64,000 bases of DNA from NCBI GenBank assembly GCA_902780395.1, contig CACZFH010000014.1, forward strand, positions 5,160 through 69,159. Direction: 5' to 3'. Of the stretch, positions 5,023-37,809 are shown piece after piece (positions within the stretch are counted from its first letter, which is position 1; every line of letters begins with the position of its first letter). A program made the position numbers and the translations under genes. This DNA is from an uncultured Erysipelotrichaceae bacterium (lineage in GTDB: Bacteria > Bacillota_I > Bacilli_A > RF39 > UBA660). The notes below the pieces were generated by a model. That model did no database searches. It was not told where the DNA came from and worked only from the letters and a program-made list of their open reading frames with translations.

Positions 5023-5067
5023 ATACATAACAAAAAAGGAAATCTTATATAAAGAAAGGTGAGTAAG

Positions 5068-6024: not shown

Positions 6025-6105
6025 CCTCCTGGTACTTTAATCGGCAGCGTTTGCTGCCTTAAGGTGGTAGAAGGGTAATCCCTTGAATAGAAAGGAGGAT
6101 ATCTT

Positions 6106-6582
6106 ATGAGGAGAAGATATTATATTGCTTACGGTAGTAACTTAAATGTAGGACAGATGAAATTCAGATGTCCAACTGCAAGGATTATTGGTACAGCAAT
6201 TATTAAGGATTACGAATTATTGTTTAAAGGAAGTAAAACAGGCTCTTATCTAACCATTGAAAAAAAGAAGGGTGAGGAAGTTCCAGTTGTAATATGGGAA
6301 ACTCAAGAAAGTGATGAACAAGCACTTGATAGATATGAAGGATGCCCACAATTCTATTACAAAAAAGAAATGATAATTCCTATTAAAGGGATAAAATCAA
6401 AAAAGACCAGAATTAGAAAAGCTTATGTTTATATAATGCATGAAGATAGAAAATTAGGTATTCCAAGCGTTCATTATTTAAGAACTTGTTATGAAGGCTA
6501 TATGAGATTTAATTTTGATCCATTGTATCTATTAGATGCACTAGATAAAAGTAGGAGGTTAGATCATGAAGAAGGAAATTAA
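6106..6582 (+). CDS. Gamma-glutamylcyclotransferase (GGCT/AIG2-like)
   Basis: YYIAYGSNLNVGQMKFRCPTARIIG...YELLF...LDRYEG is the GGCT/AIG2 signature. RBS AAGGAGG. Confidence 0.7.
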   Translation: MRRRYYIAYGSNLNVGQMKFRCPTARIIGTAIIKDYELLFKGSKTGSYLTIEKKKGEEVPVVIWETQESDEQALDRYEGCPQFYYKKEMIIPIKGIKSKKTRIRKAYVYIMHEDRKLGIPSVHYLRTCYEGYMRFNFDPLYLLDALDKSRRLDHEEGN

Positions 6583-25288: not shown

Positions 25289-26650
25289 ATGCGTAAAATA
25301 ACAAAATTAGAAACAAAAAAAATAGACCTTCCTAAACTTAAAAGAGTAGCTGCTTATGCAAGAGTATCAGTTGAAAGAGGTAGAACGCTACATTCTTATT
25401 CTGCTCAAGTTAGTTACTACAATGATTTAATACAAAAAAATCCTGAATGGGAGTTTGCAGGAGTTTATGCTGATTTAGGTATAAGCGGTACCGGTATCGA
25501 AAAGCGTAATGACTTTAAAAGGCTGTTACAAGATTGTGAGGAAGGCAAGATTGATATTATTCTTACAAAATCTGTTTCAAGGTTTGCTAGGAATACAGTG
25601 GATCTCTTAAATGTAGTAAGGCACTTAAAAGAATTAGGAATTGAAGTTAGATTTGAAAAAGAAGGCATCAATTCCTTAACAGGTGATGGAGAACTTATGC
25701 TTTCTATCCTTGCTTCATTCGCTCAAGAAGAGGTTATCTCAACAAGTAACAATATTAAATGGGCTATAAAAAAGAAATTTGAAAGTGGGAAACCTCAATG
25801 CAGATATAAGATATATGGGTATCGTTGGGATGGGGATAATTTAGTAATAGAACCTGAAGAAGCAAAAATAGTAAAGCTCATATTTCAAATGTATTTAAAT
25901 AAAGTATCGGCAGAACGAATGGAGATAGAACTTAAAAAGATGGGAGTGATTGCAACTAATGGTGGATATTTTAATATTGGAACTATTAGGGATATGCTTA
26001 AAAATATAACTTATACTGGAAACTTATTATTACAAAAATCTTATACACCAAATCCTTTGGTAAGAAGAAAAAAAGAAAATACTGGACAACTTCCAAAATA
26101 CTATGTTGAAAATAACCACGAGCCAATAATACCTTTGGAAATGTTTATGCAAGTTCAAGAAGAAAGAGAAAGAAGAAAAGCAGAAGGTCAAAGAGCTAAT
26201 TTTGGTAAAAATATAACTTGTTTTTCTTGCAGAGTTAAATGTCCAATATGTGGTAGGAATTATATGAGAAATTCAAGGTCTAAAAATTCTGATGGAATAA
26301 AAGCTCACATATGGACTTGTGGTACAAGATTAATAGGTGGATCAAAAGCCTGTCCTGGAAAAACTATAAATGAGATTGCATTAAAGAGAGTGTCAGCTAA
26401 AGTTCTTGGATTAGATGAATTTGACTCAAATGCATTTGATGAACAAATAGAAAAAGTAATTGTAGTTGGCGATGACCTGTTAGAATTTCATTTTAATGAT
26501 GGAAAAATAGTAAGTGAAAAATGGGAATATAATGCCAGAAAAGAATATTGGACTGAAGAAAAGAAAAAAGAGAGAGCAGAAAAGCTTAGAAAGATGTGGA
26601 GGGAGAAAAATGACAAAAAAAGTAACAACAATACCAGCATTATTAAATAA
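25289..26650 (+). CDS. Large serine recombinase 1
   Basis: VAAYARVS (nucleophile Ser), SVSRFARNTVD, a recombinase domain and the zinc ribbon CPICGRNY...HIWTC. The start is ATG 25286 or 25289; RBS GGAGG favours 25289. Confidence 0.85.
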   Translation: MRKITKLETKKIDLPKLKRVAAYARVSVERGRTLHSYSAQVSYYNDLIQKNPEWEFAGVYADLGISGTGIEKRNDFKRLLQDCEEGKIDIILTKSVSRFARNTVDLLNVVRHLKELGIEVRFEKEGINSLTGDGELMLSILASFAQEEVISTSNNIKWAIKKKFESGKPQCRYKIYGYRWDGDNLVIEPEEAKIVKLIFQMYLNKVSAERMEIELKKMGVIATNGGYFNIGTIRDMLKNITYTGNLLLQKSYTPNPLVRRKKENTGQLPKYYVENNHEPIIPLEMFMQVQEERERRKAEGQRANFGKNITCFSCRVKCPICGRNYMRNSRSKNSDGIKAHIWTCGTRLIGGSKACPGKTINEIALKRVSAKVLGLDEFDSNAFDEQIEKVIVVGDDLLEFHFNDGKIVSEKWEYNARKEYWTEEKKKERAEKLRKMWREKNDKKSNNNTSIIK

Positions 26651-28187
26651 GCAATCTACGAATCAGGTTGGAACAATAAAAAAGAGAAGAGTTGCTGCAT
26701 ATGCCAGAGTTTCAACAGACCAAGAAGAACAATTAACAAGTTATGAGGCACAGGTTGATTATTATACCAATTATATAAAATCAAGAGAAGATTGGGAATT
26801 TGTAGATGTTTATACTGATGAGGGTATAAGTGGAACATCTACAAAACATCGTGAAGGATTTAATAGGATGGTTAAATCTGCATTAGATGGTAACATCGAT
26901 TTAATCATTACAAAGTCTGTTTCAAGATTTGCTAGAAATACTGTAGATAGCTTAACAACCATAAGAAAACTAAAAGATATAGGGTGCGAATGTTATTTTG
27001 AAAAAGAAAACATCTGGACATTTGATGGTAAGGGAGAATTGTTGCTTACAATAATGAGTTCATTAGCTCAAGAAGAAAGTAGATCCATATCAGAGAATGT
27101 CAAATGGGGACACAGGAAAAGATTTGCCGATGGTAAAGTATCAGTGCCATTTAATAATTTCCTAGGCTATAAAAAAGGAGAAGATGGAAACCTTGTTATT
27201 GATGAAGAACAAGCAATGATTGTAAAAAGGATATATCGTGAATTTTTATCAGGGTCATCATCTGTTGCTATTGCAAAGGGACTAACAAATGATGGAATAG
27301 AGACTCCAGGACATAAACAAAAATGGTATGCTACAACTGTTAGGAGTATTCTTACCAACGAAAAATATAAAGGAGATGCGTTACTTCAAAAGCATTATAC
27401 TGTTGATTTCTTAACTAAAAAGCAAAAAATAAATAATGGAGAGGTACAACAATACTATGTTGAAAATAACCATCCAGCGATTATAGAACCAGATGTATTT
27501 GAGATGGTAAGATTAGAAATTGATAGACGATTAATGCTTAAGGGTAAGTATAGTGGAACTGATATTTTGACAGCGAAGATTAGATGTGGAGAATGTGGTG
27601 GTAGCTATGGAGCTAAAGTATGGCATTCAAATGATAAGTATAGAAGGGTAATGTATCAATGCAATAGTAAATACTCTGGAAAAGAGAAATGTAAAACACC
27701 CGCAATAAGGTCTGAAGATATCGAAAGCAGATTTGTAAATGTAGTTAATATATTAATTGAAAGTAAAGATGAGATAATTTCAAATTTAGAAAAAGTACTT
27801 GATAAGATATGTAACAAAAAAGAATTGCTAGAAGAAAAAGAAAAATTGGAAAATAGCCTAACGGAACAAGTAGAAAAAATACAAGACCTAATCGATATAA
27901 ATTCTAGAGTAGCACAAAATCAAGAAAAATATAAAAAAGAATATGATGCCTTAATAAAAAACTATGATGAAACTAAATGCAAGTTTGAACAACTAGAAAT
28001 TAAATTATCTCAACAAGCAGCTAAGCATCAGATGATAAAAGATTACATTAATACTTTAAAGAAACAAGAAAAGCTTTTGACAAAATTTGATGGTTTGGTT
28101 TGGGGAAGTTTGCTAGAAAGTGCGACAATTAAAGATAAGGATGTCATAGTATTTAGATTTAAAGATGGAACAGAAATAAATGGATAA
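26610..28187 (+). CDS. Large serine recombinase 2
   Basis: VAAYARVSTDQEEQLTSYEAQ, SVSRFARNTVDS, zinc ribbon CGECGGSY...YQC and a long C-terminal coiled coil. It overlaps recombinase 1 by 41 nt. RBS GGAGGGAG. Confidence 0.9.
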   Translation: MTKKVTTIPALLNKQSTNQVGTIKKRRVAAYARVSTDQEEQLTSYEAQVDYYTNYIKSREDWEFVDVYTDEGISGTSTKHREGFNRMVKSALDGNIDLIITKSVSRFARNTVDSLTTIRKLKDIGCECYFEKENIWTFDGKGELLLTIMSSLAQEESRSISENVKWGHRKRFADGKVSVPFNNFLGYKKGEDGNLVIDEEQAMIVKRIYREFLSGSSSVAIAKGLTNDGIETPGHKQKWYATTVRSILTNEKYKGDALLQKHYTVDFLTKKQKINNGEVQQYYVENNHPAIIEPDVFEMVRLEIDRRLMLKGKYSGTDILTAKIRCGECGGSYGAKVWHSNDKYRRVMYQCNSKYSGKEKCKTPAIRSEDIESRFVNVVNILIESKDEIISNLEKVLDKICNKKELLEEKEKLENSLTEQVEKIQDLIDINSRVAQNQEKYKKEYDALIKNYDETKCKFEQLEIKLSQQAAKHQMIKDYINTLKKQEKLLTKFDGLVWGSLLESATIKDKDVIVFRFKDGTEING

Positions 28188-28305
28188 AATTATTTAATAA
28201 ATTTTTAGGGCAAATGTGAAAATTTGCTCTTTTTGTGTTATAATATGCTTACAGATAAATAGTAATTTGTTGTTTAGTTTATATTTATAGAAAGGGGCTT
28301 TCTAA

Positions 28306-28890
28306 ATGTCAGAAAAAGAAGAAAATGAAATAACAGTAAAAGTTATATGTTCAAAAGACGAATTATTAAAATCACTAATAAAACAAGGATTTAAAGCAGG
28401 TAGAAAATTTTCACTTGATGATGATTATTATATTCCATCAACATTAGACATTCAAAATATGACTACTAGAGATATTTTATCTAAAGCAATTATTTTAAGA
28501 TATATTGTAGATGATGGAAAAATAATTCAAAAAATTACATTTAAAATAAAAAATATTGCAGATAATGGGGATATTATCAGTCAAAAGGCTATTAATTGTG
28601 ATGTTTTAGATATAGAGGATGCAAAGAAAATATTTAAATTATTAGGATATTATGAAATTATGAATATAAAAGAAAATGACATTATTTATTATAAAAATAA
28701 ATTTGAATTAGCTATAAAGTTTATTGAAAATAGTGATATTCTAATAGAGATAGAAACAGAGCCAAATACTGAATGGGATAGTATAGAAAAAATAAAAACG
28801 ATTATATCTGAAATAGATATACCAATTGAAAAAGATAGATATTTTATAAAAAAAGCAGAAAATGAATTAAATAAAATATTAAAAAGATAA
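28306..28890 (+). CDS. CYTH-domain protein (CyaB-like class IV adenylyl cyclase / triphosphate tunnel metalloenzyme fold)
   Basis: N-terminal EITVKV (ExExK-like), ...LIEIETE acidic strand near the C-terminus, about 190 aa. It has its own TGTTATAAT extended -10 at about 28236. It is much more AT-rich than the phage genes. Confidence 0.5.
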   Translation: MSEKEENEITVKVICSKDELLKSLIKQGFKAGRKFSLDDDYYIPSTLDIQNMTTRDILSKAIILRYIVDDGKIIQKITFKIKNIADNGDIISQKAINCDVLDIEDAKKIFKLLGYYEIMNIKENDIIYYKNKFELAIKFIENSDILIEIETEPNTEWDSIEKIKTIISEIDIPIEKDRYFIKKAENELNKILKR

Positions 28891-28916
28891 ATTACAATTT
28901 ATAGGGTAAAGATAAT

Positions 28917-28940
28917 AGGAGCCGAAAGGCTCTTATTTTT
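28917..28940 (+). terminator. Terminator after the CYTH gene
   Basis: Stem AGGAGCC/GGCTCTT with GAAA loop, then ATTTTT. Confidence 0.65.
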
Positions 28941-29740
28941 GTGCCTTTAAATCCTATTCACTTACAAAACTTTTCTTATTATATATTATTAAGAATGGTG
29001 TCGTGATAGATGTTGATCAAGGAGATTCTACAATACTTTATTTAAATAATCAAACGATAGTAATAGATACTGGTGGAAAAAGACAAAATCCAGATAGTAT
29101 AACCAATAATATCATAATTCCCTTTTTAAAAAGTAAAGGATTAAACTCAATCCAAACTCTAATAATTAGTCACGGAGACTACGATCATATGGGAGAAGCT
29201 ATTAATTTAGTAGAAAACTTTAAGGTAGAGAAAGTAATATTTAATTGCGGAGAATTTAATGATTTAGAAAAAGAATTAATTAAAATATTAGATAAAAAGA
29301 AGATTAAACATTATTCTTGTATTAAAGAATTAAACATAGATAAGAATAAACTATATTTTCTACAAACAAAAGAATATGATAATGAAAATGATAATTCAAA
29401 TGTTATTTATACTGAACTTGATGATTATAAATTTATGTTTATGGGAGATGCATCAAGTACTACAGAACATGAAATATTAAATGAATATAACTTACCAAAC
29501 ATAGATGTCTTAAAAGTAGGACATCATGGAAGTAATACAAGTAGTAGTAAAGAGTTTATCGAAGAGATTAATCCAAAATATTCAATAATTAGTGTAGGTA
29601 AAAATAATAGATATGGGCATCCAAATAAAGAAGTATTGGAAAATCTAAAAAAATCCAAAATATATAGAACAGACAAACAAGGAAGTATTATGTTTAAGAT
29701 TAAAAAGGATAAATTCAAGATTGAGACTTGTAGTCCATAG
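28919..29740 (+). pseudogene. comEC: comEC/rec2 3' fragment: complete metallo-beta-lactamase domain only (copy 1)
   Basis: VIDVDQGDSTILY, ISHGDYDHMGEA, LKVGHHGSNTSSSKEF, SVGKNNRYGHPNKEVL and IYRTDKQGSI are ComEC C-terminal motifs. The frame is open only back to 28919. There is no credible RBS or start, and the N-terminal membrane/competence domain is absent. Confidence 0.7.
28931..28957 (+). repeat. Junction J1 (T-rich tract plus CTTTAAATCC)
   Basis: TCTTATTTTTGTGCCTTTAAATCCTAT resembles the left flanks of J2 and J3. Confidence 0.4.
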
Positions 29741-29756
29741 AAAGGAAGACAATAAA

Positions 29757-30578
29757 ATGAATGAAATAAAAGAATATACAGAAAAAGTATTTGAAGATAT
29801 TAAATATATAGATGAATTTGGCAATGAATATTGGTTAGCTAGAGAGTTAATGTCAATACTTGAATATACATTATGGCAACGATTTTCAAATGTAATTAAA
29901 AAAGCCATAGAGAATTGCAAAAATAGCAATAACAATGTTTTAGACCATTTTATCGGCACCGATAAAATGGTTAGTATTGGTTCAAATACTAAAAGAAAAA
30001 TTCAAGATTACAAATTATCAAGATATGCATGTTATTTGATAGTATTAAATTGTGATCCTAGAAAGAAAATAATTGCTTTAGCTAAATCATATTTTGCAAT
30101 TCAAACAAGAAAACAAGAACTTTCCGAAAAAGAGTATAATGAACTAACTGAAGATAAGAAAAGATTATATAGAAGAAATCAAACAAGAAAAGGAAATTAT
30201 AATTTGAATAAAACTGCAGTTAATAGTGGAGTAAAAGATTTAGCAAGATTTCATAATGCAGGATATAAAGGACTTTATAATGGAGAAACAGCAGATGATA
30301 TTTTTAAAAGAAAGAAACTAAGATATAGAGAAGATATATTAGATAATATGGGTAGTGAAGAACTTGCAGATAATATATTTAGAATTGCTCAAACAGATGC
30401 TAAATTAAAAAGAGATAATGTAGATAACGAATATACTGCAAACTCTGTTCATTATGAAGTAGGTAAAGAAGTGAGAGATAGTATTAAAAGATTAGGTGGT
30501 ACTATGCCAGAAGATTTACCAACTCCAGAGAAAAGTCTAAAAGAATTAGAAAAAGAAAGTAGGAAATTAAAAGAATAG
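29757..30578 (+). CDS. dinD: DNA damage-inducible protein D homologue
   Basis: Collinear similarity to E. coli DinD: DHF...KMVSIGSNTKRKIQDYKLSRYACYLIVLNCDPRK, YFAIQTRKQEL, HNAGYKGLY, LDNMGSEELADNIFRIAQT, LGGTMPEDLPTPEKSLKELE. Confidence 0.8.
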   Translation: MNEIKEYTEKVFEDIKYIDEFGNEYWLARELMSILEYTLWQRFSNVIKKAIENCKNSNNNVLDHFIGTDKMVSIGSNTKRKIQDYKLSRYACYLIVLNCDPRKKIIALAKSYFAIQTRKQELSEKEYNELTEDKKRLYRRNQTRKGNYNLNKTAVNSGVKDLARFHNAGYKGLYNGETADDIFKRKKLRYREDILDNMGSEELADNIFRIAQTDAKLKRDNVDNEYTANSVHYEVGKEVRDSIKRLGGTMPEDLPTPEKSLKELEKESRKLKE

Positions 30579-30611
30579 AAAAAGTATGGTATAATTTAAA
30601 TGGTGATAATT

Positions 30612-31775
30612 ATGAATAAGAAAAATGTATTAGTCTTATTTATATATTCCTTTTTAAATAGTTTTTTATTATATAGAGCATGTGATGTTTTATATTATTT
30701 ATCAAAAGGAATTAGTAATTCAGAATATATCAATTATTTAACAATTGGTAGTTTAATAACTATTATATTCTTAATACCATTTGGAATAATAAAAGATAAA
30801 TATAATCGTAAATATATACTTCTTGTAAGTAATTTATTTTTATTAATTGCTACAGCTTTATATATTTATGCGGATAATGTATTAGTAATGGGTATTGGTA
30901 TAATTATGTCAGCTATTTCTAATTTATTATCACAGGGAATTGTCATATCTTTATTACATTCATATGTAGATGCTAAAAAAGAATATTCTAAGATGTATTA
31001 TAAATGGTCTATATACTATTACTCAGGTTATTTGATTTCAATGGTATTTGGAGGAATAGTAGCAAAATTTAGTTTGGTTTCGATGTATTATATAAGTATT
31101 ATACCTATTATGATGAATTTCTTGGTTTTATTATTTTTTAATGATTCTTATGAAAAAAGCAAAAGAAAAAACAGTTCAAAATTATTATTAAAGGAATCTT
31201 ATAAATTGTTAAAGAGTAGCAGACTATTAAAAAATATATTATTATCAGAAATGGTCATTATTCCACTTGCTGATATATTAGCCGAGAGCCATCCAGAATA
31301 TTTGTCGAATATAGGCGCTTCTACTACATTAATTGGTATATATACAGCTATTATGTGCTTATTTGCAATAGTAGGAAATAAAATAGCAAGTATTTATAAA
31401 GACCAAAGTAGTAAGTTTTTTATCTTTGCTCTATTATTTAATCTTAGTTTAATTGCAATAGGATTGTTAAATAATTATTTTTCTATTGCTTTCATAATAT
31501 TATTCCAATGCTTCTTTTCAGTAACAAATAATATTTATAATACAATAGTTCAAAATGAATGTAATGATTCATATAGACAAACAGTTTTAGCAATACTTAC
31601 TTTTATAACTTCAATTTCAGAAATGATTATATGTACTATAACATCAATGATATTTAAAAATATTAGTTTAGGACATTCATATATTGTATTAGGCATATTT
31701 GGTTTAGCGATAATGTTGATTATAGTTATATTTAATATTTTTAAAAATAAAAATGCTCAAGAATTATCAAAATGA
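30612..31775 (+). CDS. MFS-type transporter
   Basis: About 12 predicted TM helices, with a GIIKDKYNRKY loop between TM2 and TM3 (MFS motif-A-like). Confidence 0.6.
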   Translation: MNKKNVLVLFIYSFLNSFLLYRACDVLYYLSKGISNSEYINYLTIGSLITIIFLIPFGIIKDKYNRKYILLVSNLFLLIATALYIYADNVLVMGIGIIMSAISNLLSQGIVISLLHSYVDAKKEYSKMYYKWSIYYYSGYLISMVFGGIVAKFSLVSMYYISIIPIMMNFLVLLFFNDSYEKSKRKNSSKLLLKESYKLLKSSRLLKNILLSEMVIIPLADILAESHPEYLSNIGASTTLIGIYTAIMCLFAIVGNKIASIYKDQSSKFFIFALLFNLSLIAIGLLNNYFSIAFIILFQCFFSVTNNIYNTIVQNECNDSYRQTVLAILTFITSISEMIICTITSMIFKNISLGHSYIVLGIFGLAIMLIIVIFNIFKNKNAQELSK

Positions 31776-31780
31776 TAATT

Positions 31781-31823
31781 CTTTTTCTTTAACTAAATAC
31801 GTATGCATAAACGTATGTCACCA
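31781..31823 (+). repeat. Junction J2
   Basis: TTCTTTTTCTTTAACTAAATACGTATGCATAAACGTATGTCACCA aligns with J3 and abuts the HGDYDH codons. Confidence 0.55.
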
Positions 31824-32250
31824 CATGGAGACTATGACCATATGGGAGAAGCGATTAACTTAGTAAATAACTTCAAGGTAGAAAAAGTAATCTTTAATTG
31901 TGGAGAATATAATGATTTAGAAAAAGAATTAATTAAGATATTAAATAAAAAGAAAATTAAATATTATTCATGTATTAAAGAACTAAACATAGATAACAAT
32001 AAATTATATTTTTTACAGACAAAAGAATATGATAATGAAAATGATAACAGTAATGTTATCTATACAGAACTTAATGGTTATAAATATATGTTTATGGAAG
32101 ATGCTGGAGTTACTACTGAAAAAGAAATACAAGATAAATATAATTTACCAGATATAGATGTATTAAAAGTAGGACATCATGGGAGTAAAACAAGTAGTGG
32201 GAAAGAATTCATTAATGAAATGAATCCAACATATTCCATAACTGGTATAC
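31824..32250 (+). pseudogene. comEC: comEC 3' fragment, copy 2 (HGDYDH to NPTYSI; truncated at both ends)
   Basis: In about 235 nt compared by eye, roughly nine of ten positions match copy 1 (29172-29600). The protein reads HGDYDHMGEAINLVNNFKVEKVIFNCGE...LKVGHHGSKTSSGKEF. Confidence 0.75.
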
Positions 32251-32305
32251 GGTTTATTGACAAAAAATAATTTCAATGTATATTATATGTAGGAGGAATG
32301 TTATT

Positions 32306-32704
32306 ATGATAAGAATTTTCAAACCCAAATCATTATATCCGAGAGATGATAACAATGAGGTAGAAATAGATGAATTAAATCTAGATTCATCAGAATTGTA
32401 TTTGAATTTTTGCGAGACTAAGGATGTAGGCAGGTATTTTTATAGATCTCAAGAAGATGGTGGATCCGAAGCTGACTGGCGATGGATAGGTATAAAGAAT
32501 CCTTAGCCAGATGATGAAATAATGTCTCAAGCAGCGTTTATGTTTTATATGAATAATGCGGTTAACTCGCAATATGGAGGAACAGGATTAATAGTTTGTT
32601 CTGATAAAAATAATTTTGCATATTGTATTGATAAAAAGATGTCAAAAGAATTAGAAGGACTACTAGAATGTTCACAAGAAGATATACAACAACGAATGAG
32701 ATGA
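32306..32704 (+). pseudogene. Hypothetical ~132-codon ORF interrupted by one in-frame TAG (32504-32506)
   Basis: ORFs 32276..32506 and 32522..32704 are in the same frame, separated only by the amber codon and five sense codons. Confidence 0.45.
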
Positions 32705-32987
32705 TATATGAAAATTAATGGTTAAAGTCGCGATGGTTTTGACCATAGAATAGATTATACAAATAATAATTTATAGTTTAGTTTAAATTATTTAGATATG
32801 AAGAGAATATAAAAATGAAGTTGTCGATGAAAATTTGACACTAAAAAAATATTTGAAGCCTGGTTGAGTTTTAAATTCAACTAGGTTTTTATAATGAATA
32901 TGTAATTGATTATTGTTCAGAAGATAGAATTGCTGTAAGAAAGTATTAGTTAGTATGATATAATAATTCATTATTAGGAGGCCTATT

Positions 32988-33530
32988 ATGGTAATTAATA
33001 TTAGAAGTGATCAATATAAAAAACTAATATCATTGTGCATTCAATCGAAACTGGAACAAAATGGATTAATAAGGTTAAAAATATTAAATGGTGAAGTTTA
33101 CTTTTTAGATTATTATGAGTCAAATGGAGAAGAAATCATTGAAAGGACCAATAATCACATACAATATAATAGTAAAGATTTTATATATTATCAAACGGTG
33201 ACGACATTATTATTTGATCCTTCAAAGGAAATATGGGTTAATTATCATACTCATCCAGGTTTATTGTCTATTAATGGCTTAAGTGAATCTGATTTTGAAA
33301 CATTACAATATAGAACATATTTAAGAAATAGGGTTTATACAGAGATATATCAAATCGAACCTCCAATTCAAGTTGACGCTATTATCACAGAAGACGAAGT
33401 TGGTTTTTATAGTATAGTGGATGATAAAATCGTTAAGCATAATCTTTGGATTGATGGAAAACCAATAAAAGATGTTAAAAATACTAATGCTATAATTCTA
33501 AAAAGAATTGTAAAAAGAATAATAAAATAA
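32988..33530 (+). CDS. JAB/MPN (JAMM) domain protein
   Basis: LEQNGLIRL resembles the ExxG strand. YHTHPGLLSINGLSESD is HxH-x9-S-xx-D, two residues longer than the canonical spacing. RBS AGGAGG and TGATATAAT extended -10 upstream. Confidence 0.5.
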   Translation: MVINIRSDQYKKLISLCIQSKLEQNGLIRLKILNGEVYFLDYYESNGEEIIERTNNHIQYNSKDFIYYQTVTTLLFDPSKEIWVNYHTHPGLLSINGLSESDFETLQYRTYLRNRVYTEIYQIEPPIQVDAIITEDEVGFYSIVDDKIVKHNLWIDGKPIKDVKNTNAIILKRIVKRIIK

Positions 33531-33560
33531 TATGACAAGAAGGTTTAAGAATTAAAATAA

Positions 33561-33603
33561 GTCTTTTTTACTTTAAATCCATATGCATAAACATATGCTA
33601 CCA
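33561..33603 (+). repeat. Junction J3
   Basis: GTCTTTTTTACTTTAAATCCATATGCATAAACATATGCTACCA aligns with J2 and shares CTTTAAATCC with J1. Confidence 0.55.
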
Positions 33604-33695
33604 CATGGGATTTTGATCATATGGGAGAAGCTATTAATTTAATTAATCTTAAAGTTGAGAAAGTAATCTCTTTAATTGAAGAGAATATGAATCAG
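33604..33695 (+). pseudogene. comEC: comEC 3' fragment, copy 3, proximal remnant
   Basis: CATGGGATTTTGATCATATGGGAGAAGCTATTAAT... aligns with copy 1 from the HGDYDH codons. It carries a 1-nt deletion in HGD(Y/F)DH and a 3-nt deletion further on. Confidence 0.65.
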
Positions 33696-33725
33696 TGTGA
33701 CATAATTAATTTAGGAGATGATTAT

Positions 33726-34154
33726 ATGAAAAAAAAGCATATTTTGATATTAGTAGTGGTGTTATGTCTATTTGTTTTTACTGGTTGCAATAAAAATGAT
33801 AAAACTAAACTTATAGAGGGAGTTGATTATAAAATAAAAGGAGAATTTACTGGCAAATATCTAGATATATCAAAAAGAGGATATTATATAGATACATTGA
33901 ATGAGCCTGGTTCACCATATTATTATATTATATGCATGGGTCAAAAGAATACTGGAGGATATAGTTTAAAAATTAAAGAAGTGAATGCAATTGCTGAAGA
34001 AATTGAAATAATAGTAGAGGAAGTTGCTCCAGGTGAAGGGAATACGGTTACCATGGTAATTACTAATCCAACTATTATCGTAGAATTTGCAAAATATCAA
34101 GAAAAAATTATAATAAAAAATATGAAAGGTGAAGTATTTGAAGAATTAAATTAA
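33726..34154 (+). CDS. PrcB_C-domain lipoprotein
   Basis: Lipobox LFVFTGC after a signal peptide. ICMGQKNTGGYSLKIKEV...IIVEEVAPGEGNTVTMVITNPTIIVEF matches the PrcB C-terminal domain pattern. Confidence 0.6.
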   Translation: MKKKHILILVVVLCLFVFTGCNKNDKTKLIEGVDYKIKGEFTGKYLDISKRGYYIDTLNEPGSPYYYIICMGQKNTGGYSLKIKEVNAIAEEIEIIVEEVAPGEGNTVTMVITNPTIIVEFAKYQEKIIIKNMKGEVFEELN

Positions 34155-34246
34155 ATCTTGTAAAAAAACTAAAATATATAGAACAAATGAAAACGGGAGT
34201 ATTATGGTTAAAATTTAAAAAATAGCTAGTTGAAACTTGCAGTCTA
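34153..34246 (+). pseudogene. comEC: comEC 3' fragment, copy 3, distal remnant
   Basis: AAATCTTGTAAAAAAACTAAAATATATAGAACAAATGAAAACGGGAGTATTATGGTTAAAAT...TTGAAACTTGCAGTC aligns with the last ~95 nt of copy 1 (ENLKKSKIYRTDKQGSIMFKIK...ETCSP) and contains in-frame stops. Confidence 0.65.
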
Positions 34247-34289
34247 AAATTAGTTTTAATATGGTATAATTATTATAGGATGTGATATT

Positions 34290-35165
34290 TTGATAACAAT
34301 TAATCAGATTTTATCCGAAACAGATACTGAAAATAGAAAAAAATTAATTAGTATTCGATTATCAGAATTAGAACAAAACTCAGAGCAAGATAAAGAATTG
34401 AATTTAAATGCAATTCATAAAGGTTACATATCAACAAGCAATACGATACAGTTTTCATCTGATTTAATAGATATTAATGATTACCCAGTGATGTCTAAGT
34501 ATACTATGAAGGCAACAGATTATTTTTATGAATTTATAAATTATTTAATCCAAAAAAATATTAAAAATATAATGGATGCCCTATACTTGGTAAGCCCATT
34601 TCTTCATGAATATTTTGGAACTAATAGTGATTATACTAATAAAAATAATCGAAGTAGTTCATTTGATAATATGGGTAATCAACTAGGAAAAATTAAAGAA
34701 AAATATGGTAATTCTATGTTTAATGATTATTATAATAAATGGTTTGATATTTCAATCTTTAAGAATAATTCTATGGCTGAATGTACTGAATATGCTGCTT
34801 TAACACAAAACTTATTTTCGTTTATAGGAGCAAATTCTTATTATGTTTTGGGAAGCTTTTCTTCAGATGAAGGTAAAAGTGAAAGTCATGCCTTCAATTT
34901 GGCTCAACTTGATGCAGATTCTTTCTTTATTGTAGATACAGCCAATCCAACAATTACTTATGATATGGAATATAATATTATTTCATCTAGACCTAGGATT
35001 CAAAAAATATCTAGAAATGAATTCATTAATGCAATAACTGGGAATGGTTTAAATGTTGATTTTTCTGCATGTAATTTCCAAATAAATGGACATAATACTA
35101 GAAAAATAGATGTTATAAATTGTAATTATAGTATCAAAACCAAAACAAATTTGAAATCAAAATAA
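34290..35165 (+). CDS. Transglutaminase-like / papain-fold cysteine peptidase candidate
   Basis: Ordered Cys-His-Asp candidates: NSMAECTEYAALTQNLF, SESHAFNLAQL, FIVDTAN. TTG start, TGGTATAAT extended -10 upstream. Confidence 0.45.
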   Translation: MITINQILSETDTENRKKLISIRLSELEQNSEQDKELNLNAIHKGYISTSNTIQFSSDLIDINDYPVMSKYTMKATDYFYEFINYLIQKNIKNIMDALYLVSPFLHEYFGTNSDYTNKNNRSSSFDNMGNQLGKIKEKYGNSMFNDYYNKWFDISIFKNNSMAECTEYAALTQNLFSFIGANSYYVLGSFSSDEGKSESHAFNLAQLDADSFFIVDTANPTITYDMEYNIISSRPRIQKISRNEFINAITGNGLNVDFSACNFQINGHNTRKIDVINCNYSIKTKTNLKSK

Positions 35166-35271
35166 ACAAGTATTAAATAATTTACAAAGCTGATCTAATG
35201 TAATAATGTTATTACTACTAGAGTTTATAAAATAGTGCGATATAATGAATATAGAAGATGAGGTTGATTAT

Positions 35272-35736
35272 ATGAATAAATATTTAGATAATAGTCTAAC
35301 AAATCCAAAATTTTTGTTTCACGGAAGTCCTAAAAAATTGAAAGTTATTGAACAAAGACAAGCATATGATTCAGATGGTACTAAAGAAAATGAAGATTTC
35401 GCAGTATTTATGACATCATCATTTATCGTCGCAAGTGCTTATGCTTTTAAAGATAAAATAAAAGAAATAAGTGAAGGCTTAGATTGGAAGTTTGAAATAG
35501 GTAGAGATTCTAATACTGATGAAATATTTGTAAGTATGGATAATGTCAATGTTGATGATGAATTAGAGGGATATATCTACGTCTTTAATTATGATGAATC
35601 TTATACTCATGTGAGAAAATCAATTCAATATAAATGTCACAAAAATGTATTACCAATAGATGTTGTAAGCATTAAATTTAAAGATTTTAAAAATTATTAT
35701 AGTATTAATAATAAGGATAAAAAAACTTTAAAATAA
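35272..35736 (+). CDS. Hypothetical protein with weak H-Y-E ADP-ribosyltransferase-like pattern
   Basis: FLFHGSP..., ...AVFMTSSFIVASAYAF..., ...LEGYIYVF. This is a pattern-level resemblance only. ATG 35272 lies downstream of a TATAAT at 35241. Confidence 0.4.
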   Translation: MNKYLDNSLTNPKFLFHGSPKKLKVIEQRQAYDSDGTKENEDFAVFMTSSFIVASAYAFKDKIKEISEGLDWKFEIGRDSNTDEIFVSMDNVNVDDELEGYIYVFNYDESYTHVRKSIQYKCHKNVLPIDVVSIKFKDFKNYYSINNKDKKTLK

Positions 35737-35799
35737 TAACTATAACCTGACTATATCATTAATAATTATAGAATAAATTACCAATTTGAGGAACTTATT

Positions 35800-36207
35800 A
35801 TGAAAGTAAGAGATTTTTTAAATGGTGCTGCAGAATATTTAACAGAGTATAAAAATACACCATTTTCAGTAAAATGTATTAATTATCCTATTCAATATGT
35901 AGGAGTAGGTACCCATAGTGATTATCCAGCAGAGTATTATGAACCTACAATCGAAGGAGTAATATGTATAGCTAGAGATGATTTTGATATAGAACATATC
36001 CATCAAGGTTATTTATGTTATCCAGAAGAATATCAAGATTTTTATAAAAAAAGAGATTTTATATTATGCTTTGGTCCTCAAAAGGATTTAGATTTTGAAG
36101 AAATTTTAGAAAGTGAATTTGACTTTAAAAATCACGGAATTTATGGACTGGCAGAAAGTCAAATAAGTAAGGTTAAAAAGAAATATATACCCCATAATAG
36201 ACACTAA
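35800..36207 (+). CDS. Hypothetical acidic protein (135 aa)
   Basis: ORF with RBS-like GAGGAA upstream and a terminator downstream. No recognisable domain. Confidence 0.45.
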   Translation: MKVRDFLNGAAEYLTEYKNTPFSVKCINYPIQYVGVGTHSDYPAEYYEPTIEGVICIARDDFDIEHIHQGYLCYPEEYQDFYKKRDFILCFGPQKDLDFEEILESEFDFKNHGIYGLAESQISKVKKKYIPHNRH

Positions 36208-36211
36208 TATT

Positions 36212-36232
36212 AGCACAGTTATGTGCTTTTTC
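36212..36232 (+). terminator. Rho-independent terminator
   Basis: AGCACA-GTTA-TGTGCT followed by TTTTT. Confidence 0.7.
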
Positions 36233-36307
36233 TTTGTTGTAAGTACATGGAAATTATAATTTAATTATTATTTATTAATATGTTATAATTTAATAGAGGT
36301 TGATAAT

Positions 36308-37081
36308 ATGAATTATGAAGAAGCTAAAAAGCATTTTGAAGATTTTTTGAATGATAATTATGATATTAATGATAAAAAAATAAATCGTAAAAAGGAACAT
36401 ACATATAAAGTTGTTGAAAATGCCAAATATTTATGTGAATTTTTAAAATTAGATAAGATAAATACCGAATTAGCCATGATAATTGCCTTGCTTCATGATA
36501 TTGGAAGATTTGACCAAGCCAAAATAATGAAAACATTCAGAGAAGACATTACCAATTTTGATCATGCATCTTTAGGAATAAAAATATTATTTGAGAAAGG
36601 TGAAATTAAAAGATATGTAGATAATGAATCATATTATCCAATTATTAAAAAAGCTATAGGAAATCACAGCAAATATATTTTAGATGAAACAGGAATGAAT
36701 GATGTTGAAATACTTCATTGCAAAATAATTAGAGATGCAGATAAAATAGATTCTTTTAGATCTAAACTTGTTGATGATATTTATACTATTGCTAATATTT
36801 CTAAAGAAGAACTTGAAAACTCAAAAGTTACTGAAAAAGTTTATAATACATTTAAAGAACATAAAACAGTTTTTAGTAAAGATAGACAAACTGGATTGGA
36901 CATTTGGGTTTCATATATTGCATTTATATTTGGATTAGAATTTAAAGGAAGCTATGAGTTAATAAATAAAAATGATTACTTAAATAAACTATTCAATAGG
37001 TATGATTATAAAGCTGATAAATCAACGATGGATGAATTAAAAGAATGTGCTTTTGAGTATTTGAATAATAAACTAAAATAG
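36308..37081 (+). CDS. HD-domain phosphohydrolase
   Basis: H...ALLHDIGRFDQ, DHASLG, IGNHSK and IRDADKIDS are HD superfamily motifs. TGTTATAAT extended -10 upstream. Confidence 0.65.
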   Translation: MNYEEAKKHFEDFLNDNYDINDKKINRKKEHTYKVVENAKYLCEFLKLDKINTELAMIIALLHDIGRFDQAKIMKTFREDITNFDHASLGIKILFEKGEIKRYVDNESYYPIIKKAIGNHSKYILDETGMNDVEILHCKIIRDADKIDSFRSKLVDDIYTIANISKEELENSKVTEKVYNTFKEHKTVFSKDRQTGLDIWVSYIAFIFGLEFKGSYELINKNDYLNKLFNRYDYKADKSTMDELKECAFEYLNNKLK

Positions 37082-37131
37082 AAAAAAAGGTAAATAAAAA
37101 ACACATAATAATTGATAAAGGATGTGGTAAT

Positions 37132-37809
37132 ATGAGTTATGTAACAAATAAGTATAATGAAGGTAAATTAATAATTAGAGCAGTTGACTTACCAATGTTA
37201 CATAAAGTAAATGATGAAATAAAATATGATTGTTCAGTATGGGCAACTGAATTTGACATGATAATGCATGATGAATTTGAATCAGTCTCATCTACTTTAC
37301 TAGTTCCAAATGTAGGAGTTAAAACATATAAAAATGTAGGTTTTCTAGTTGATTATGATTTAGCAACAATTCAACATGTTGCATTAACTGATAGTGTAAG
37401 TAGTGGTAGTTTTAAAAATGGTGATTTTCATGCTGCTCACTCTGATTTCGAAACATTACAACAGGCTGCAGATTACATAAAAAATAATAATTATACCCCA
37501 ATGAATGAAGTTAATATATCTATTCCATTAAATTCTGTAGTAGGATTAGTAGTAATAAAGTGTAATAATGAATTAAAACATCTTAAAGCAATGCTAGCTG
37601 TCAGAAAATGTTTATATGAATTAACTGGAATAGAATTTGCTATTTTTGAATATGACAGTAGTTGTGGAATATTAAAAGAACTTGCTTTAACTGACGACTT
37701 GATTGAAACAATTAATTCAGCAACAGATGTAAACAAATATGACTATTATACAAATTATAGTGATGAGATTTATGAAGGAAGTATAAATACTGTTATAAAA
37801 CACTTATAA
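37132..37809 (+). CDS. Hypothetical protein (225 aa)
   Basis: ORF with RBS AAAGGATG-like sequence upstream. No recognisable domain. Confidence 0.45.
   Translation: MSYVTNKYNEGKLIIRAVDLPMLHKVNDEIKYDCSVWATEFDMIMHDEFESVSSTLLVPNVGVKTYKNVGFLVDYDLATIQHVALTDSVSSGSFKNGDFHAAHSDFETLQQAADYIKNNNYTPMNEVNISIPLNSVVGLVVIKCNNELKHLKAMLAVRKCLYELTGIEFAIFEYDSSCGILKELALTDDLIETINSATDVNKYDYYTNYSDEIYEGSINTVIKHL

What the first reader, a model, noticed from the sequence alone, without database searches (positions are those of the whole stretch)
28919..34246. Three copies of the comEC 3' (MBL-domain) end, each behind a related junction, with cargo modules in between
Seen directly: copy 1 (28919-29740) encodes the whole ComEC metallo-beta-lactamase domain but no N-terminal membrane domain and no credible start. 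Copy 2 (31824-32250) begins exactly at the HGDYDH codons and matches copy 1 at roughly nine of ten positions in the ~235 nt I compared. Copy 3 survives only as a proximal remnant (33604-33695, with a 1-nt deletion in the HGDYDH codons) and a distal remnant (34153-34246). Copies 2 and 3 are preceded by nearly the same non-comEC sequence, T-rich tract/CTTTAA(A)T(A/C)C/(G/A)TATGCATAAAC(G/A)TATG(T/C)(C/T)ACCA. The first part of it (T-rich tract plus CTTTAAATCC) also precedes copy 1. Unrelated cargo lies between the copies: CYTH; dinD plus MFS; amber-split ORF plus JAB. Inference: this is the footprint of repeated site-specific insertions (accretion) into one target inside comEC. Each incoming element would bring a surrogate 3' end and displace the previous one. 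Copy 3 is the most decayed and is therefore probably the oldest. No integrase lies inside the island, so the two phage serine recombinases just upstream are candidate trans-acting enzymes. The arrangement also implies that comEC is split or inactivated here. That resembles phage-interrupted competence genes (the comK prophage in Listeria), but I know of no such description for the comEC MBL motif.
Basis: partly seen in the sequence, partly recalled or inferred. Interest (0 to 1): 0.75.

Follow-up and report, generated by a model that had tools for sequence, protein, structure and literature searches.

The report
Gene-cassette array built on comEC's end
Behind a prophage that splits the DNA-uptake gene comEC lies a stack of small integrase-less gene cassettes, each carrying a spare copy of the gene's tail and ending in a phage attachment-site arm; about 70% of related gut bacteria have such a stack.

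Summary
Copy 1 (29003-29740), copy 2 (31824-~32250) and two remnants of copy 3 are comEC metallo-beta-lactamase-domain 3' ends. J2 and J3 share a 25-nt non-comEC arm.

- 41 of 59 related RF39-type genomes carry displaced comEC 3' fragments.
- The fragments start at two fixed points: the CA of the first His codon of HGDYDH (site A), and a GT in SVGKNN (site B).
- In functional comEC genes, identity between species jumps at exactly these points, for example from 55-65% to 100%.

Three details of the reading are wrong.
- There are three targets, not one. J1 is the attR of the Phi1207.3-like prophage, with a GA core in the IDVGQGD codons.
- The motif J1 shares with J2/J3 is phage DNA.
- The J2/J3 arm is the P arm of a different large-serine-recombinase clade. 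A true attP next to such a recombinase was found, as were lysogens split at HGDYDH. The two upstream recombinases are therefore not the enzymes for J2/J3.

Phage insertion into comEC is already known from streptococci. The cassette array with long surrogate gene ends appears undescribed. I rate it a new variant of site-specific accretion (SCC- or CIME-like). The mobilisation route is inferred, not shown.

The parts
25289..26650 (+). Large serine recombinase 1 of the prophage (int1, 453 aa)
   Evidence: Resolvase, Recombinase and Zn_ribbon_recom domains; called gene in L001.
26610..28187 (+). Large serine recombinase 2 of the prophage (int2, 525 aa)
   Evidence: Pfam. 51% identical to the integrase of S. 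suis phage phi-SsuSH0918_comEC. The identical protein occurs in many other contigs.
28188..28270 (+). Conserved tail of the recombinase module: terminator 28207-28230, then a promoter-like TGTGTTATAAT and leader
   Evidence: Homology with L133 and L135-L140 ends at 28270; terminator and promoter scan.
28306..28890 (+). CYTH-like ORF (194 aa) occupying the variable cargo slot 28271-28888 of the prophage
   Evidence: Sub-threshold TIGR00318 hit. The same slot holds erm, tet and ant(6)-like genes or HTH/PAP2 genes in other contigs.
28889..28986 (+). Conserved 98-bp right end of the prophage, with terminator 28919-28932 and CTTTAAATCC 28945-28954
   Evidence: 94-100% identical in L133, L135 and L136, which are not comEC contexts.
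28987..29010 (+). J1: remaining inner part of the site-C attR P arm (TATTAAGAATGGTGTCGTGATA) plus the GA core at 29009-29010. The outer 32 nt of the arm present in sibling contigs are missing here
   Evidence: Compared with L001, L136 and L135. attL of a related prophage in L097 reads ..ATGATGATT|GA|CCAAAC.
29003..29170 (+). comEC MBL domain, codons q1-56 (IDVDQGDS ... LIIS), downstream of the prophage attR
29171..29740 (+). comEC codons q57-245 of copy 1: the 3' segment that travels with cassette 1 (surrogate end)
   Evidence: In relatives this segment is exchanged between species, with sharp breakpoints at site A.
29757..30578 (+). dinD (Bro-N domain; PADLOC candidate defence gene PDC-S13), starting 17 nt after the comEC stop
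   Evidence: NF008573 E 3e-102; PDC-S13 E 8e-99. dinD follows a comEC stop in 22 array positions in relatives.
30600..31775 (+). MFS transporter, cargo of cassette 1
   Evidence: MFS_1 E 4e-25. A 92%-identical copy lies in the array of L028, whose comEC is 77% identical.
31760..31798 (+). Cassette-end terminator hairpin AGAATTATCA-AAA-TGATAATTCT, T tract and TAAAT
   Evidence: Read from the sequence. The same hairpin type precedes the arms in many genomes.
31799..31825 (+). J2: type-A1 P arm (ACGTATGCATAAACGTATGTCACCA) plus the CA core at 31824-31825; an attR of a single-LSR phage clade
   Evidence: The outer 12 nt mirror the P' arm of L093/L094 lysogens. The sister arm type A2 is half of a true attP in L091.
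31824..32250 (+). Copy 2: displaced comEC codons q57 to about q198
32276..32704 (+). ORF split by an in-frame TAG (32504-32506), with a promoter-like site at 32257-32284; cargo of cassette 2, function unknown
32988..33530 (+). 180-aa ORF with an HTHP..SESD motif ('JAB-like', unverified); cargo of cassette 2
   Evidence: No profile hit.
33579..33605 (+). J3: type-A1 P arm (CCATATGCATAAACATATGCTACCA) plus the CA core at 33604-33605
33604..33695 (+). Copy 3, proximal remnant (q57 to about q88) with a 1-nt deletion in the HGDYDH codons
33726..34154 (+). PrcB_C-domain lipoprotein. It is a cassette gene in L038, where it directly follows the functional comEC
   Evidence: PF14343 E 3.5e-13; L038 and L124.
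34128..34246 (+). Copy 3, distal remnant (about q208-245, with stops)
   Evidence: (D5).

Best explanation
Two things are stacked here.

(A) A Phi1207.3/Phi-m46.1-type prophage runs from before position 1 to 29008. It has two tandem large serine recombinases (LSRs) at its right end and is integrated at a GA dinucleotide in the IDVGQGD codons of comEC (site C). It separates the roughly 435-codon membrane part, which lies outside the window, from the MBL domain. J1 is its attR. In this window the outer 32 nt of the attR arm and 80 bp of the endolysin gene are missing, so the prophage is probably stuck and comEC is split for good.

(B) Downstream lies an array of small cassettes that encode no recombinase. 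Each cassette has the same layout: a comEC 3' segment starting at an att core, cargo gene(s) in the comEC orientation, a terminator, and a 25-nt P arm of an LSR attP. J2 and J3 are attR sites at a second target, the CA of the first His codon of HGDYDH (site A). They were made by a different, single-LSR phage clade.

Shown: when a cassette sits next to the comEC 5' part, its comEC segment becomes the working 3' end of the gene, and the former end is pushed downstream and decays. This array type is widespread in RF39-type gut Bacilli, and the cassettes, including their comEC segment, move between species.

Inferred mobilisation route, about 50% within this explanation: accretion-mobilisation by the phages. 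A phage integrated at site A excises by recombining attL with a distal rather than the proximal attR. It carries the intervening cassette(s) into a new host and integrates by attP x attB. It later leaves through the proximal attR, depositing the cassette with its surrogate end. Every step uses canonical LSR site pairs. The first duplication probably arose from an aberrantly excised phage that integrated by homologous recombination in the comEC 3' homology.
For: The prophage and J1:
- Phage modules and tandem LSRs.
- 51% identity to the integrase of a streptococcal phage named for its comEC insertion, and the literature GA core.
- attL of a related prophage in L097, comEC 5' 463 aa ..ATT|GA|CCAAAC, matches the window attR ..GATA|GA|TGTTGATCAAGG.
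- 75 of 80 related genomes have an uninterrupted comEC of about 680 aa across this point.

The array is general:
- 41 of 59 genomes with at least 2.5 kb of downstream sequence have 1-6 displaced fragments.
- 44 fragments start at q57 and 16 at q195/196.
- Arrays hold 127 plus-strand ORFs of at least 70 aa against 3 minus-strand ORFs of at least 120 aa, and the plus-strand ORFs fall into 50 clusters.

The arms are LSR P arms:
- The type-A2 arm TCGACTTACTTTTTGACAATCACCA is the left half of a 52-bp dyad-symmetric attP that abuts a 473-aa LSR on viral contig L091.
- Four genomes carry related LSRs directly next to a comEC 5' part that ends at site A (attL).
- The outer 12 nt of the A1 arm (J2, J3) are the reverse complement of the outer 12 nt of the L093/L094 P' arm, at the same distance from the core.

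The surrogate end is real:
- Median identity among 76 functional genes is 55% (upstream 600 nt), 61% (q1-56), 82% (q57-194) and 83% (q195-245).
- Third-codon-position identity is 0.48 against 0.67.
- Pairs such as L058/L065 (55/65 then 100%), L014/L053 (52/51 then 97/97) and L049/L064 (96/96/95 then 80) switch exactly at CATGG or at AGT|GT|TGG.

Cargo moves: dinD is 92% identical and MFS 92% identical in genomes whose comEC is 76-77% identical.

The window arrangement is seen in at least 8 independent assemblies.
Against: - No excision product, circle or phage genome carrying a cassette was seen. IMG/VR holds no phage with these comEC segments and no exact A1 or B arm.
- The right end of a site-A lysogen could not be fetched, so a prophage with an array behind it is documented only for the site-C phage of this window.
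- The sequence just upstream of the A2 arm differs between phage L091 and the cassettes. Cassette right ends are therefore not simply that phage's end.
- The recombinase for site B was not identified.
- The window lineage's own comEC 5' fragment and attL were not recovered.
- Some gene pairs become identical only 25-30 nt after the core. Two reciprocal contigs switch inside the 3' segment. Homologous recombination therefore also shapes these segments.
Confidence: 0.72

Rival explanations
1. The cassettes are independent mini-elements, analogous to integron cassettes. Each excises as a small circle carrying a P-arm/comEC-segment site. A resident or phage LSR, acting in trans, re-inserts it directly into the comEC site. 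No phage genome serves as vehicle.
For: The cassettes are small (0.6-3 kb), uniformly oriented and end in a conserved terminator plus arm. No phage carrying them was found. The arrays look like cassette arrays.
Against: The site on such a circle would have a P-type left half and a B'-type right half, which is an attR. By established LSR biochemistry, attR x attB is not a productive pair. If instead the right half acted as P', the product next to comEC would be an attL and would block the next insertion. Yet several A-type junctions accumulate in one array (window J2 and J3; L017, L027, L028). No LSR gene lies within 8-10 kb of 110 arrays.
Confidence: 0.15
2. Homologous recombination alone built and spreads the array. 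A circular or linear DNA carrying a comEC 3' fragment recombines with the resident comEC (Campbell-type insertion-duplication or transformation). The conserved arms are relics of a few ancient phage insertions.
For: Displaced and functional copies share 80-100% identity, which would support RecA-dependent exchange. Some identity tracts begin 25-30 nt inside the segment. Contigs L002 and L147 switch within a 38-nt identical zone inside copy 2. Homologous-recombination spread of streptococcal prophage-ICE tandems is documented (PMC13651849).
Against: A single crossover inside the fragment would leave the resident sequence between the core and the crossover. In several pairs, identity starts at the core itself, while the flank 5' of it is only 51-65% identical, too diverged for a left-hand crossover. 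At least four arm types (A1, A2, A3, B), each conserved across many species and one matching a live attP, are hard to explain as relics. L002 and L147 come from one sample and may be reciprocal assembly chimeras.
Confidence: 0.1
3. The copies are an ancestral tandem duplication, free-standing MBL paralogues, or a reservoir of silent 3' cassettes kept for gene conversion that varies the extracellular nuclease domain of ComEC.
For: Several partial copies in direct orientation with 84-87% identity. The MBL domain is surface-exposed in monoderm bacteria (general knowledge).
Against: Displaced copies are truncated at variable points, frameshifted and carry stops. Their starts coincide with phage att cores and phage arms. 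18 of 59 genomes have none. Copy number and cargo differ between species.
Confidence: 0.03

Closest known systems
Phi1207.3 / Tn1207.3, Phi10394.4 (Streptococcus pyogenes) and S. suis phi-SsuSH0918_comEC: prophages integrated in comEC
   Same: Phage with DNA methylases and a lysis cassette. Two tandem serine recombinase genes sit at the right end, followed by one cargo gene and then attR. Integration is at a GA dinucleotide inside comEC (PMC4260502). Window int2 is 51% identical to the S. suis phage integrase. The S. suis attR lies in the same HxDxDH motif that RF39 cassettes use.
   Different: The window prophage sits 56 codons further upstream, in the IDVGQGD motif. No array of surrogate comEC ends behind these streptococcal phages came up in what I read, and the S. 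suis record ends at the comEC stop.
SCC elements (SCCmec, composite and pseudo-SCC) at the 3' end of rlmH/orfX in staphylococci (from my own knowledge)
   Same: Large serine recombinases (CcrAB). Insertion is in the 3' end of a conserved gene, whose last codons are replaced by the element. Tandem accretion occurs, including units without recombinase genes, each bounded by a repeat of the target end.
   Different: The repeat there is about 15-20 bp, and the target lies at the very end of the gene. Here 150-570 bp of coding sequence, up to 77% of a catalytic domain, are replaced and become horizontally exchanged. The vehicle appears to be phages.
ICESt1/ICESt3 and cis-mobilisable elements (CIMEs) at the fda 3' end in Streptococcus thermophilus: accretion-mobilisation; also the phage-ICE tandems of PMC13651849
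   Same: Recombinase-less modules bounded by att sites accumulate next to an autonomous element. They can leave with it when the outer att sites recombine. This is the route proposed here.
   Different: Those systems use tyrosine integrases, short repeats, and conjugative rather than phage vehicles. Their mobilisation was shown experimentally, whereas here it is inferred.
e14 / phage 21 in icd, and dusA-specific integrases (PMC4482086)
   Same: Elements that insert inside a protein-coding gene and bring a replacement for the displaced end, so the gene stays intact.
   Different: Those use tyrosine integrases with an extended identity block. They are single insertions, not arrays. icd and dusA rather than a competence gene.
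Integron cassette arrays
   Same: Arrays of co-oriented, mostly single-gene cassettes without their own recombinase, each ending in a recombination site.
   Different: No intI tyrosine recombinase, no attI and no folded attC. The sites here are halves of serine-recombinase attP sites, and each cassette carries part of a host gene.
Listeria comK prophage (A118 / phi10403S)
   Same: An LSR prophage splits a competence gene.
   Different: comK is a regulator. There is no surrogate end and no array. Regulated excision ('active lysogeny') was not examined here, and the window's attR looks damaged.

Membership tests
Phi1207.3/Phi-m46.1-type comEC-inserting prophage (applies to window 1-29010) | Two tandem large serine recombinase genes at the right end, followed by a cargo gene and attR | tested here: met
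   layout as in PMC4260502.
Phi1207.3/Phi-m46.1-type comEC-inserting prophage (applies to window 1-29010) | Insertion inside the comEC coding sequence at a GA dinucleotide | tested here: met
   attR ..GTGATA|GA|TGTTGATCAAGG (window) and attL ..ATGATGATT|GA|CCAAAC in the related prophage L097. Relatives have an intact gene across the point. The attL of this very lineage was not recovered.
Phi1207.3/Phi-m46.1-type comEC-inserting prophage (applies to window 1-29010) | Recombinase sequence relatedness to the streptococcal phages | tested here: met
   51-53% identity over 99% of int2 to Javan phages and phi-SsuSH0918_comEC.
Phi1207.3/Phi-m46.1-type comEC-inserting prophage (applies to window 1-29010) | Ability to excise and transfer | not testable with these tools
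   The window lacks 32 nt of the attR arm and 80 bp of the endolysin gene relative to sibling contigs, which suggests it cannot.
Site-specific accretion array (SCC / CIME type) | Direct repeats of the target end, each joined to an element-derived att arm, bounding modules | tested here: met
   J2 and J3 in the window; 44 site-A and 16 site-B junctions in relatives; 34 more A1 junctions.
Site-specific accretion array (SCC / CIME type) | Modules lack their own recombinase | tested here: met
   No recombinase domain in 28900-34300. No LSR within 8-10 kb of about 110 arrays except L067, where it is unrelated.
Site-specific accretion array (SCC / CIME type) | The att arm equals that of an autonomous element encoding the recombinase | tested here: met
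   The A2 arm is the left half of the attP in L091, next to an LSR. The A1 arm is matched only through dyad symmetry with the L093/L094 P' arm. The site-B recombinase was not found.
Site-specific accretion array (SCC / CIME type) | Excision of single or composite units as circles, and transfer | not testable with these tools
   Needs reads or experiments. Indirect evidence only: cassette segments 97-100% identical in species whose comEC 5' parts are 51-65% identical.
Integron | intI tyrosine recombinase with adjacent attI and Pc | tested here: not met
   No tyrosine recombinase in the window region or in the loci examined. The sites are LSR half-sites.
Integron | attC: imperfect palindrome recombined as folded single strand | tested here: not met
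   Cassette ends are a terminator hairpin followed by a 25-28-nt arm. For the A2 set, conservation starts 28 nt from the core. The arm pairs with a P' arm in a duplex attP.
Free-standing MBL-fold paralogue | Own start and conserved full length, independent of comEC | tested here: not met
   The copy 1 frame continues from phage DNA with no credible start. In 75 of 80 relatives the same segment is the C-terminus of a comEC of about 680 aa.

The most novel reading that the evidence does not exclude
RF39-type gut Bacilli have a serine-recombinase-based counterpart of the integron. The 3' part of comEC serves as a universal docking platform with at least two att cores placed in catalytic-motif codons. 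Recombinase-less cassettes, often carrying defence-type genes (dinD/PDC-S13, YhcG nuclease, HD proteins), dock and undock there through LSRs supplied in trans. Every exchange also swaps most of the ComEC nuclease domain. The competence gene is therefore kept working, and part of it has become a mobile, pan-species sequence.
Probability: 0.3. Interest if true: 0.85.

Novelty: new variant of a known kind. Interest (0 to 1): 0.68.

Why it matters
- It shows how an essential part of the DNA-uptake machine can be a favoured phage target and still stay functional. The incoming DNA brings a replacement for up to 189 of the 245 codons of the nuclease domain. As a result, that part of comEC is shared horizontally between species whose remaining comEC is only about 55% identical.
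- It defines natural attB/attP pairs for at least two clades of large serine recombinases. One 52-bp attP is in hand, and these enzymes are of practical interest as genome-integration tools.
- It marks a predictable hotspot where uncultured gut Bacilli store variable genes, possibly anti-phage ones.
- It gives a concrete, testable case of phage-driven accretion-mobilisation with serine integrases.
- The same recombinase module flanks erm, tet and aminoglycoside-resistance cargo in other gut bacteria, which links this phage family to resistance-gene traffic.

Tried and rejected
- Viral-contig scans for the A1 arm, the site-B arm and the putative site-B P' sequence found nothing. A scan for phages encoding the comEC 3' segment also found nothing.
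- I first read the end of copy 2 (about 32240-32270) as an attL of a site-B element. A careful alignment and a survey of other truncated fragments show variable truncation points followed by promoters, so I treat it as a deletion endpoint.
- L116 seemed to hold a full attP inside an array. It is a decayed comEC fragment.
- A recurrent 'site D' near q88 was considered and rejected, because the endpoints scatter from about q75 to q118.
- L147 looked like the empty site of this species, and L002 like the donor. Together they suggested homologous-recombination transfer. L155 then showed that the two are reciprocal joins between two species (dnaG 79% identical) from one sample. I therefore do not use them as evidence.
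- Walking to the prophage left end in the window's own contig failed. Look-ups are restricted to window proteins or search hits, and the 472-aa comEC fragment P0247 belongs to the other species.
- L067, with an LSR 9 kb downstream of an intact comEC, is not a prophage carrying a surrogate end.
- The promoter scan is uninformative in this AT-rich DNA: 50 found against 56 expected.
- Pfam, NCBIfam and PADLOC give nothing for the 180-aa 'JAB' ORF, the split ORF, or ORFs 34290-36207 and 37132-37809.

Full report
**What is in the window**

The region has a G+C content of 24-27%, against 31-36% for positions 1 to about 28200. The left part is a prophage. It encodes terminase, portal, capsid, tail, holin and endolysin, then two overlapping large serine recombinase (LSR) genes at 25289-26650 and 26610-28187.

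Downstream genes all lie on the plus strand:
- a 194-aa ORF with a sub-threshold class IV adenylate cyclase/CYTH hit;
- copy 1 of the comEC metallo-beta-lactamase (MBL) domain (29003-29740; TIGR00361 positions 445-663);
- dinD (29757-30578);
- an MFS transporter (30600-31775);
- copy 2 (31824 to about 32250);
- an ORF split by TAG;
- a 180-aa ORF;
- the proximal remnant of copy 3 (33604-33695);
- a PrcB_C lipoprotein gene;
- the distal remnant of copy 3 (about 34128-34246);
- five more small genes, then dnaG and sigA.

Copies 1 and 2 are 87% identical over 300 nt. All three copies align from the HGDYDH codons. The 35 nt in front of copies 2 and 3 are 86% identical. The core of that junction occurs nowhere else in the window. 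The arrangement is present base for base in at least eight independent metagenome assemblies, so it is not an assembly accident.

**J1 is the attR of the prophage, at a different site**

In 75 of 80 related genomes (uncultured RF39-type Bacilli), the segment equivalent to copy 1 is the C-terminus of an uninterrupted comEC of about 680 aa. There are 420-450 in-frame codons upstream, against 28 in the window. Native genes read ..Y-I-x-F-I-D-V-G-Q-G-D-S. Window homology to them begins at ATAGATGT.

A related prophage (L097, 86% identical PD-(D/E)XK protein, same gene order) has a 463-aa comEC 5' part at its left end, finishing ..ATGATGATT|GA|CCAAAC. The window has ..GGTGTCGTGATA|GA|TGTTGATCAAGG. 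The crossover is therefore a GA in the I-D codons of the IDVGQGD motif, which I call site C.

This fits the literature. Phi1207.3/Tn1207.3 and Phi10394.4 of S. pyogenes have two serine recombinase genes and one cargo gene at their right end, and they integrate at a GA inside comEC (PMC4260502). Window int2 is 51-53% identical to integrases of streptococcal phages, including one named phi-SsuSH0918_comEC.

The exact int2 protein occurs in many other contigs. DNA comparison shows a conserved recombinase module ending at 28270. After it comes a variable slot: CYTH-like here; erm-, tet- and ant(6)-like genes or others elsewhere. Then comes a conserved 98-bp block (28889-28986) and the arm GTTAAATCGTATTCACTCTAAAAAGTTTGTTGTATTAAGAATGGTGTCGTGATA. 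In L135 this arm is joined to a different gene (..GTGATG|GA|ACCTACTAATGGAGAT).

It is not a comEC-specific junction, and the 10-mer occurs five times in the window. Relative to sibling contigs, the window lacks the outer 32 nt of the arm and 80 bp of the endolysin gene.

**J2 and J3 are attR sites of another recombinase clade**

A tblastn survey of the 80 loci found extra comEC 3' fragments behind the functional gene in 41 of the 59 genomes with at least 2.5 kb of downstream sequence. There are one to six per genome, in arrays of 0.7-7.7 kb. The fragment starts are not scattered. Forty-four begin at codon 57 of my copy-1 numbering, the CAT/CAC of HGDYDH (site A). Sixteen begin at codon 195/196, in ..S-V-G-K-N-N-R-Y-G-H-P (site B).

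The non-comEC sequence in front is conserved across species and falls into types:
- A1: TCGTATGCATAAACGTATGTCACCA|CATGG (window J2 and J3; 34 further junctions in 32 genomes);
- A2: TCGACTTACTTTTTGACAATCACCA|CATGG;
- A3: ATGTGAGAAACCAYTAATCACCA|CATGG;
- B: TATGTAYTAACTACTYAATACCA|GTTGG.

For the A2 set, conservation starts 28 nt from the core. Further upstream there is only a terminator hairpin and a T tract.

The A2 arm occurs on an IMG/VR viral contig (L091) as the left half of TCGACTTACTTTTTGACAATCACCA-CA-TGGAGGTATGTGGTTAGTAAGTCGA. This is 25+2+25 bp with inverted outer decamers, and it lies immediately next to a 473-aa LSR gene. That is a textbook LSR attP.

Four GTDB genomes carry LSRs 65-73% identical to it. 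Each abuts a comEC 5' part that ends at site A, for example ..CTTACT|CA|TGGACATTGAGTGTTATGCACACGA. These are attL sites, and these phages split comEC at HGDYDH without supplying a replacement. The outer 12 nt of the L093/L094 P' arm are the reverse complement of the outer 12 nt of the A1 arm, at the mirror position. A1 is therefore the P arm of that sub-clade.

These LSRs are only about 23% identical to window int1. The two recombinases in the window are thus not the enzymes behind J2 and J3. The S. suis phage attR (..GTACTAATACC|GACGCTGACCATGTGGGC) lies in the same HxDxDH motif, 6 nt further downstream.

**The incoming unit supplies the working 3' end**

I aligned 79 functional genes plus fragments and compared segments.

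| Segment | Median nucleotide identity among functional genes | Third-codon-position identity |
|---|---|---|
| 600 nt upstream of the MBL domain | 55% | not computed |
| Codons 1-56 | 61% | 0.48 |
| Codons 57-194 | 82% | 0.67 |
| Codons 195-245 | 83% | 0.67 |

The third-position figures show that the difference is not just protein constraint.

Individual pairs switch abruptly (upstream / codons 1-56 / 57-194 / 195-245):
- L058/L065: 55/65/100/88;
- L014/L053: 52/51/97/97;
- L042/L046: 65/65/97/99;
- L049/L064: 96/96/95/80;
- L035/L088: 92/92/74/87.

The pairwise alignments show the switch at CATGG for site A and at AGT|GT|TGG for site B. Nine pairs have at least 92% identity in codons 57-194 with less than 70% identity upstream.

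dinD always begins about 18 nt after a comEC stop and is repeated along arrays with the fragments (L039, L076). Cargo can be more similar than comEC: dinD and MFS reach 92% against 76-77% for comEC.

The mobile unit is therefore the following: comEC segment from the core to the stop, then cargo, then terminator, then P arm. Displaced copies decay. Their distal ends are cut at scattered positions (about q75 to q118), often directly followed by a promoter-like sequence and a new gene. Copy 3 of the window is frameshifted and interrupted.

Cargo is diverse (50 sequence clusters, which also include the comEC fragments themselves) and almost always co-oriented with comEC. Frequent cargo families are dinD, which matches the PADLOC defence candidate PDC-S13, and a YhcG/DUF1016 nuclease.

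**How it most likely works**

Shown:
- the att-type junctions;
- their link to LSR phages;
- the lysogens;
- the horizontal exchange bounded by the cores.

Inferred: the route of movement. A circle carrying only a cassette would bear a P-arm/B'-arm site, which is an attR. By what is established for LSRs, attR x attB is not a productive pair.

A route that uses only canonical pairs is accretion-mobilisation:
1. A phage sits at site A in front of an existing array.
2. It excises by attL x a distal attR and thereby takes up the cassette(s) in between.
3. It integrates in a new host by attP x attB.
4. It later leaves by attL x the proximal attR, leaving the cassette fused to the new host's comEC 5' part and the host's own end displaced.

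This route also explains why the phage right end in the window looks like a cassette: promoter, one variable gene, terminator, arm. The first duplication would need a non-canonical event, for instance an aberrantly excised phage integrating by homology in the comEC 3' part.

Homologous recombination clearly contributes as well. Some identity tracts start 25-30 nt inside the segment.

**Caveats**

- Two contigs from one sample (L002 and L147) are reciprocal joins between the window type and a second species (L155 type; dnaG 79% identical). They switch in a 38-nt zone inside copy 2. They are either real recombinants or chimeric assemblies, and I did not rely on them.
- The window lineage's own attL was not recovered.
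- The recombinase for site B is unknown.
- No phage carrying a cassette was found.

**Comparison with what is known**

The prophage part is a member of a known kind: Phi1207.3-like LSR phages in comEC. The array resembles three known systems:
- SCC composite islands at rlmH (LSRs, recombinase-less units, target-end repeats);
- CIME accretion at fda;
- icd/e14 or dusA elements that carry surrogate gene ends (PMC4482086).

It differs in combining these features with serine-integrase half-sites. It also differs in the length of the replaced coding segment (150-570 bp of a catalytic domain), in having several cores inside one domain, and in its prevalence across a bacterial order.

Full-text searches and a 2025 review of mobile elements against competence genes list only disruption of comEC, not such arrays.

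**Verdict**

The array is a new variant of a known kind. Interest is 0.68.

Noticed in passing
window 22788/22789 and 28986/28987 (compare L001 3675-3754 and 9953-9984): The window is 100% identical to sibling contigs except for two clean deletions. One removes 80 bp inside the GH25 endolysin gene and shifts its frame. The other removes 32 bp, the outer part of the prophage attR arm. Together they would ground the prophage and make the comEC split permanent. I saw no flanking direct repeats around the 80-bp deletion, and the origin of both is unclear.
   Followed up: partly
window 28271-28888; loci L133 (CP118265.1, 3.36-Mb genome), L135-L138, L140: The identical int2 protein and its promoter-bearing tail flank a variable slot. 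In other bacteria that slot holds erm-type methylase, tet ribosomal-protection, ant(6)-type and PadR/glyoxalase genes instead of the CYTH-like ORF. The same 98-bp right end follows in L133, L135 and L136. In L135 and L138 a 23S rRNA uracil-methyltransferase (rum-like) gene lies a few kb upstream of the recombinase pair.
   Followed up: partly
L002/L134/L143 and L147 (sample ERZ27280616) against window 32132-32169: These are reciprocal contigs that swap partners between the window type and a second species inside copy 2, within a 38-nt identical zone. They are either inter-species recombination in the comEC 3' segment or paired assembly chimeras.
   Followed up: partly
L155 11078-11917 (species with the 678-aa comEC, 20 contigs); L002 13432-14260: This is a clean single site-B cassette: a 191-aa ORF with its own promoter, then a terminator, a degenerate site-B-type arm and a decayed q196-245 remnant, then LOR, a DnaC-like gene, RNase R and thrS. 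It would be a good species for population-level mapping of gain and loss.
   Followed up: partly
L097 1135-6875: The related comEC-inserting prophage carries a complete type I restriction-modification system (HsdM, HsdS, HsdR) at its left end, just inside attL.
   Followed up: no
window 1273-4693 and 5059-6582 (L004 10555-15864): The prophage encodes a SAM-synthetase-like protein, a ParB-N6/N4 methylase, a C5 methylase, an amidoligase and a GGACT-type protein ahead of the terminase. This matches the two methylation systems described for Phi1207.3.
   Followed up: no
window 34290-37809: Five small ORFs lie between the last comEC remnant and dnaG: 291, 163, 135, 257 (HD domain, weak Cas3-HD-like hits) and 225 aa. 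Distant relatives of the 291-aa ORF (25-31% identity) sit directly behind comEC in five other genomes. This stretch may therefore be older cassettes whose att remnants have eroded.
   Followed up: partly
L154 about 7125-7179; L130 5724-7001; L131 67-1708: These are further ways of interrupting comEC in relatives. L154 has a break at about codon 40 of the MBL domain, at a contig end. L130 has a 1.3-kb stretch without a called gene in front of an MBL-only ORF. L131 has an ABC-2 membrane gene directly upstream of an MBL-only ORF.
   Followed up: no
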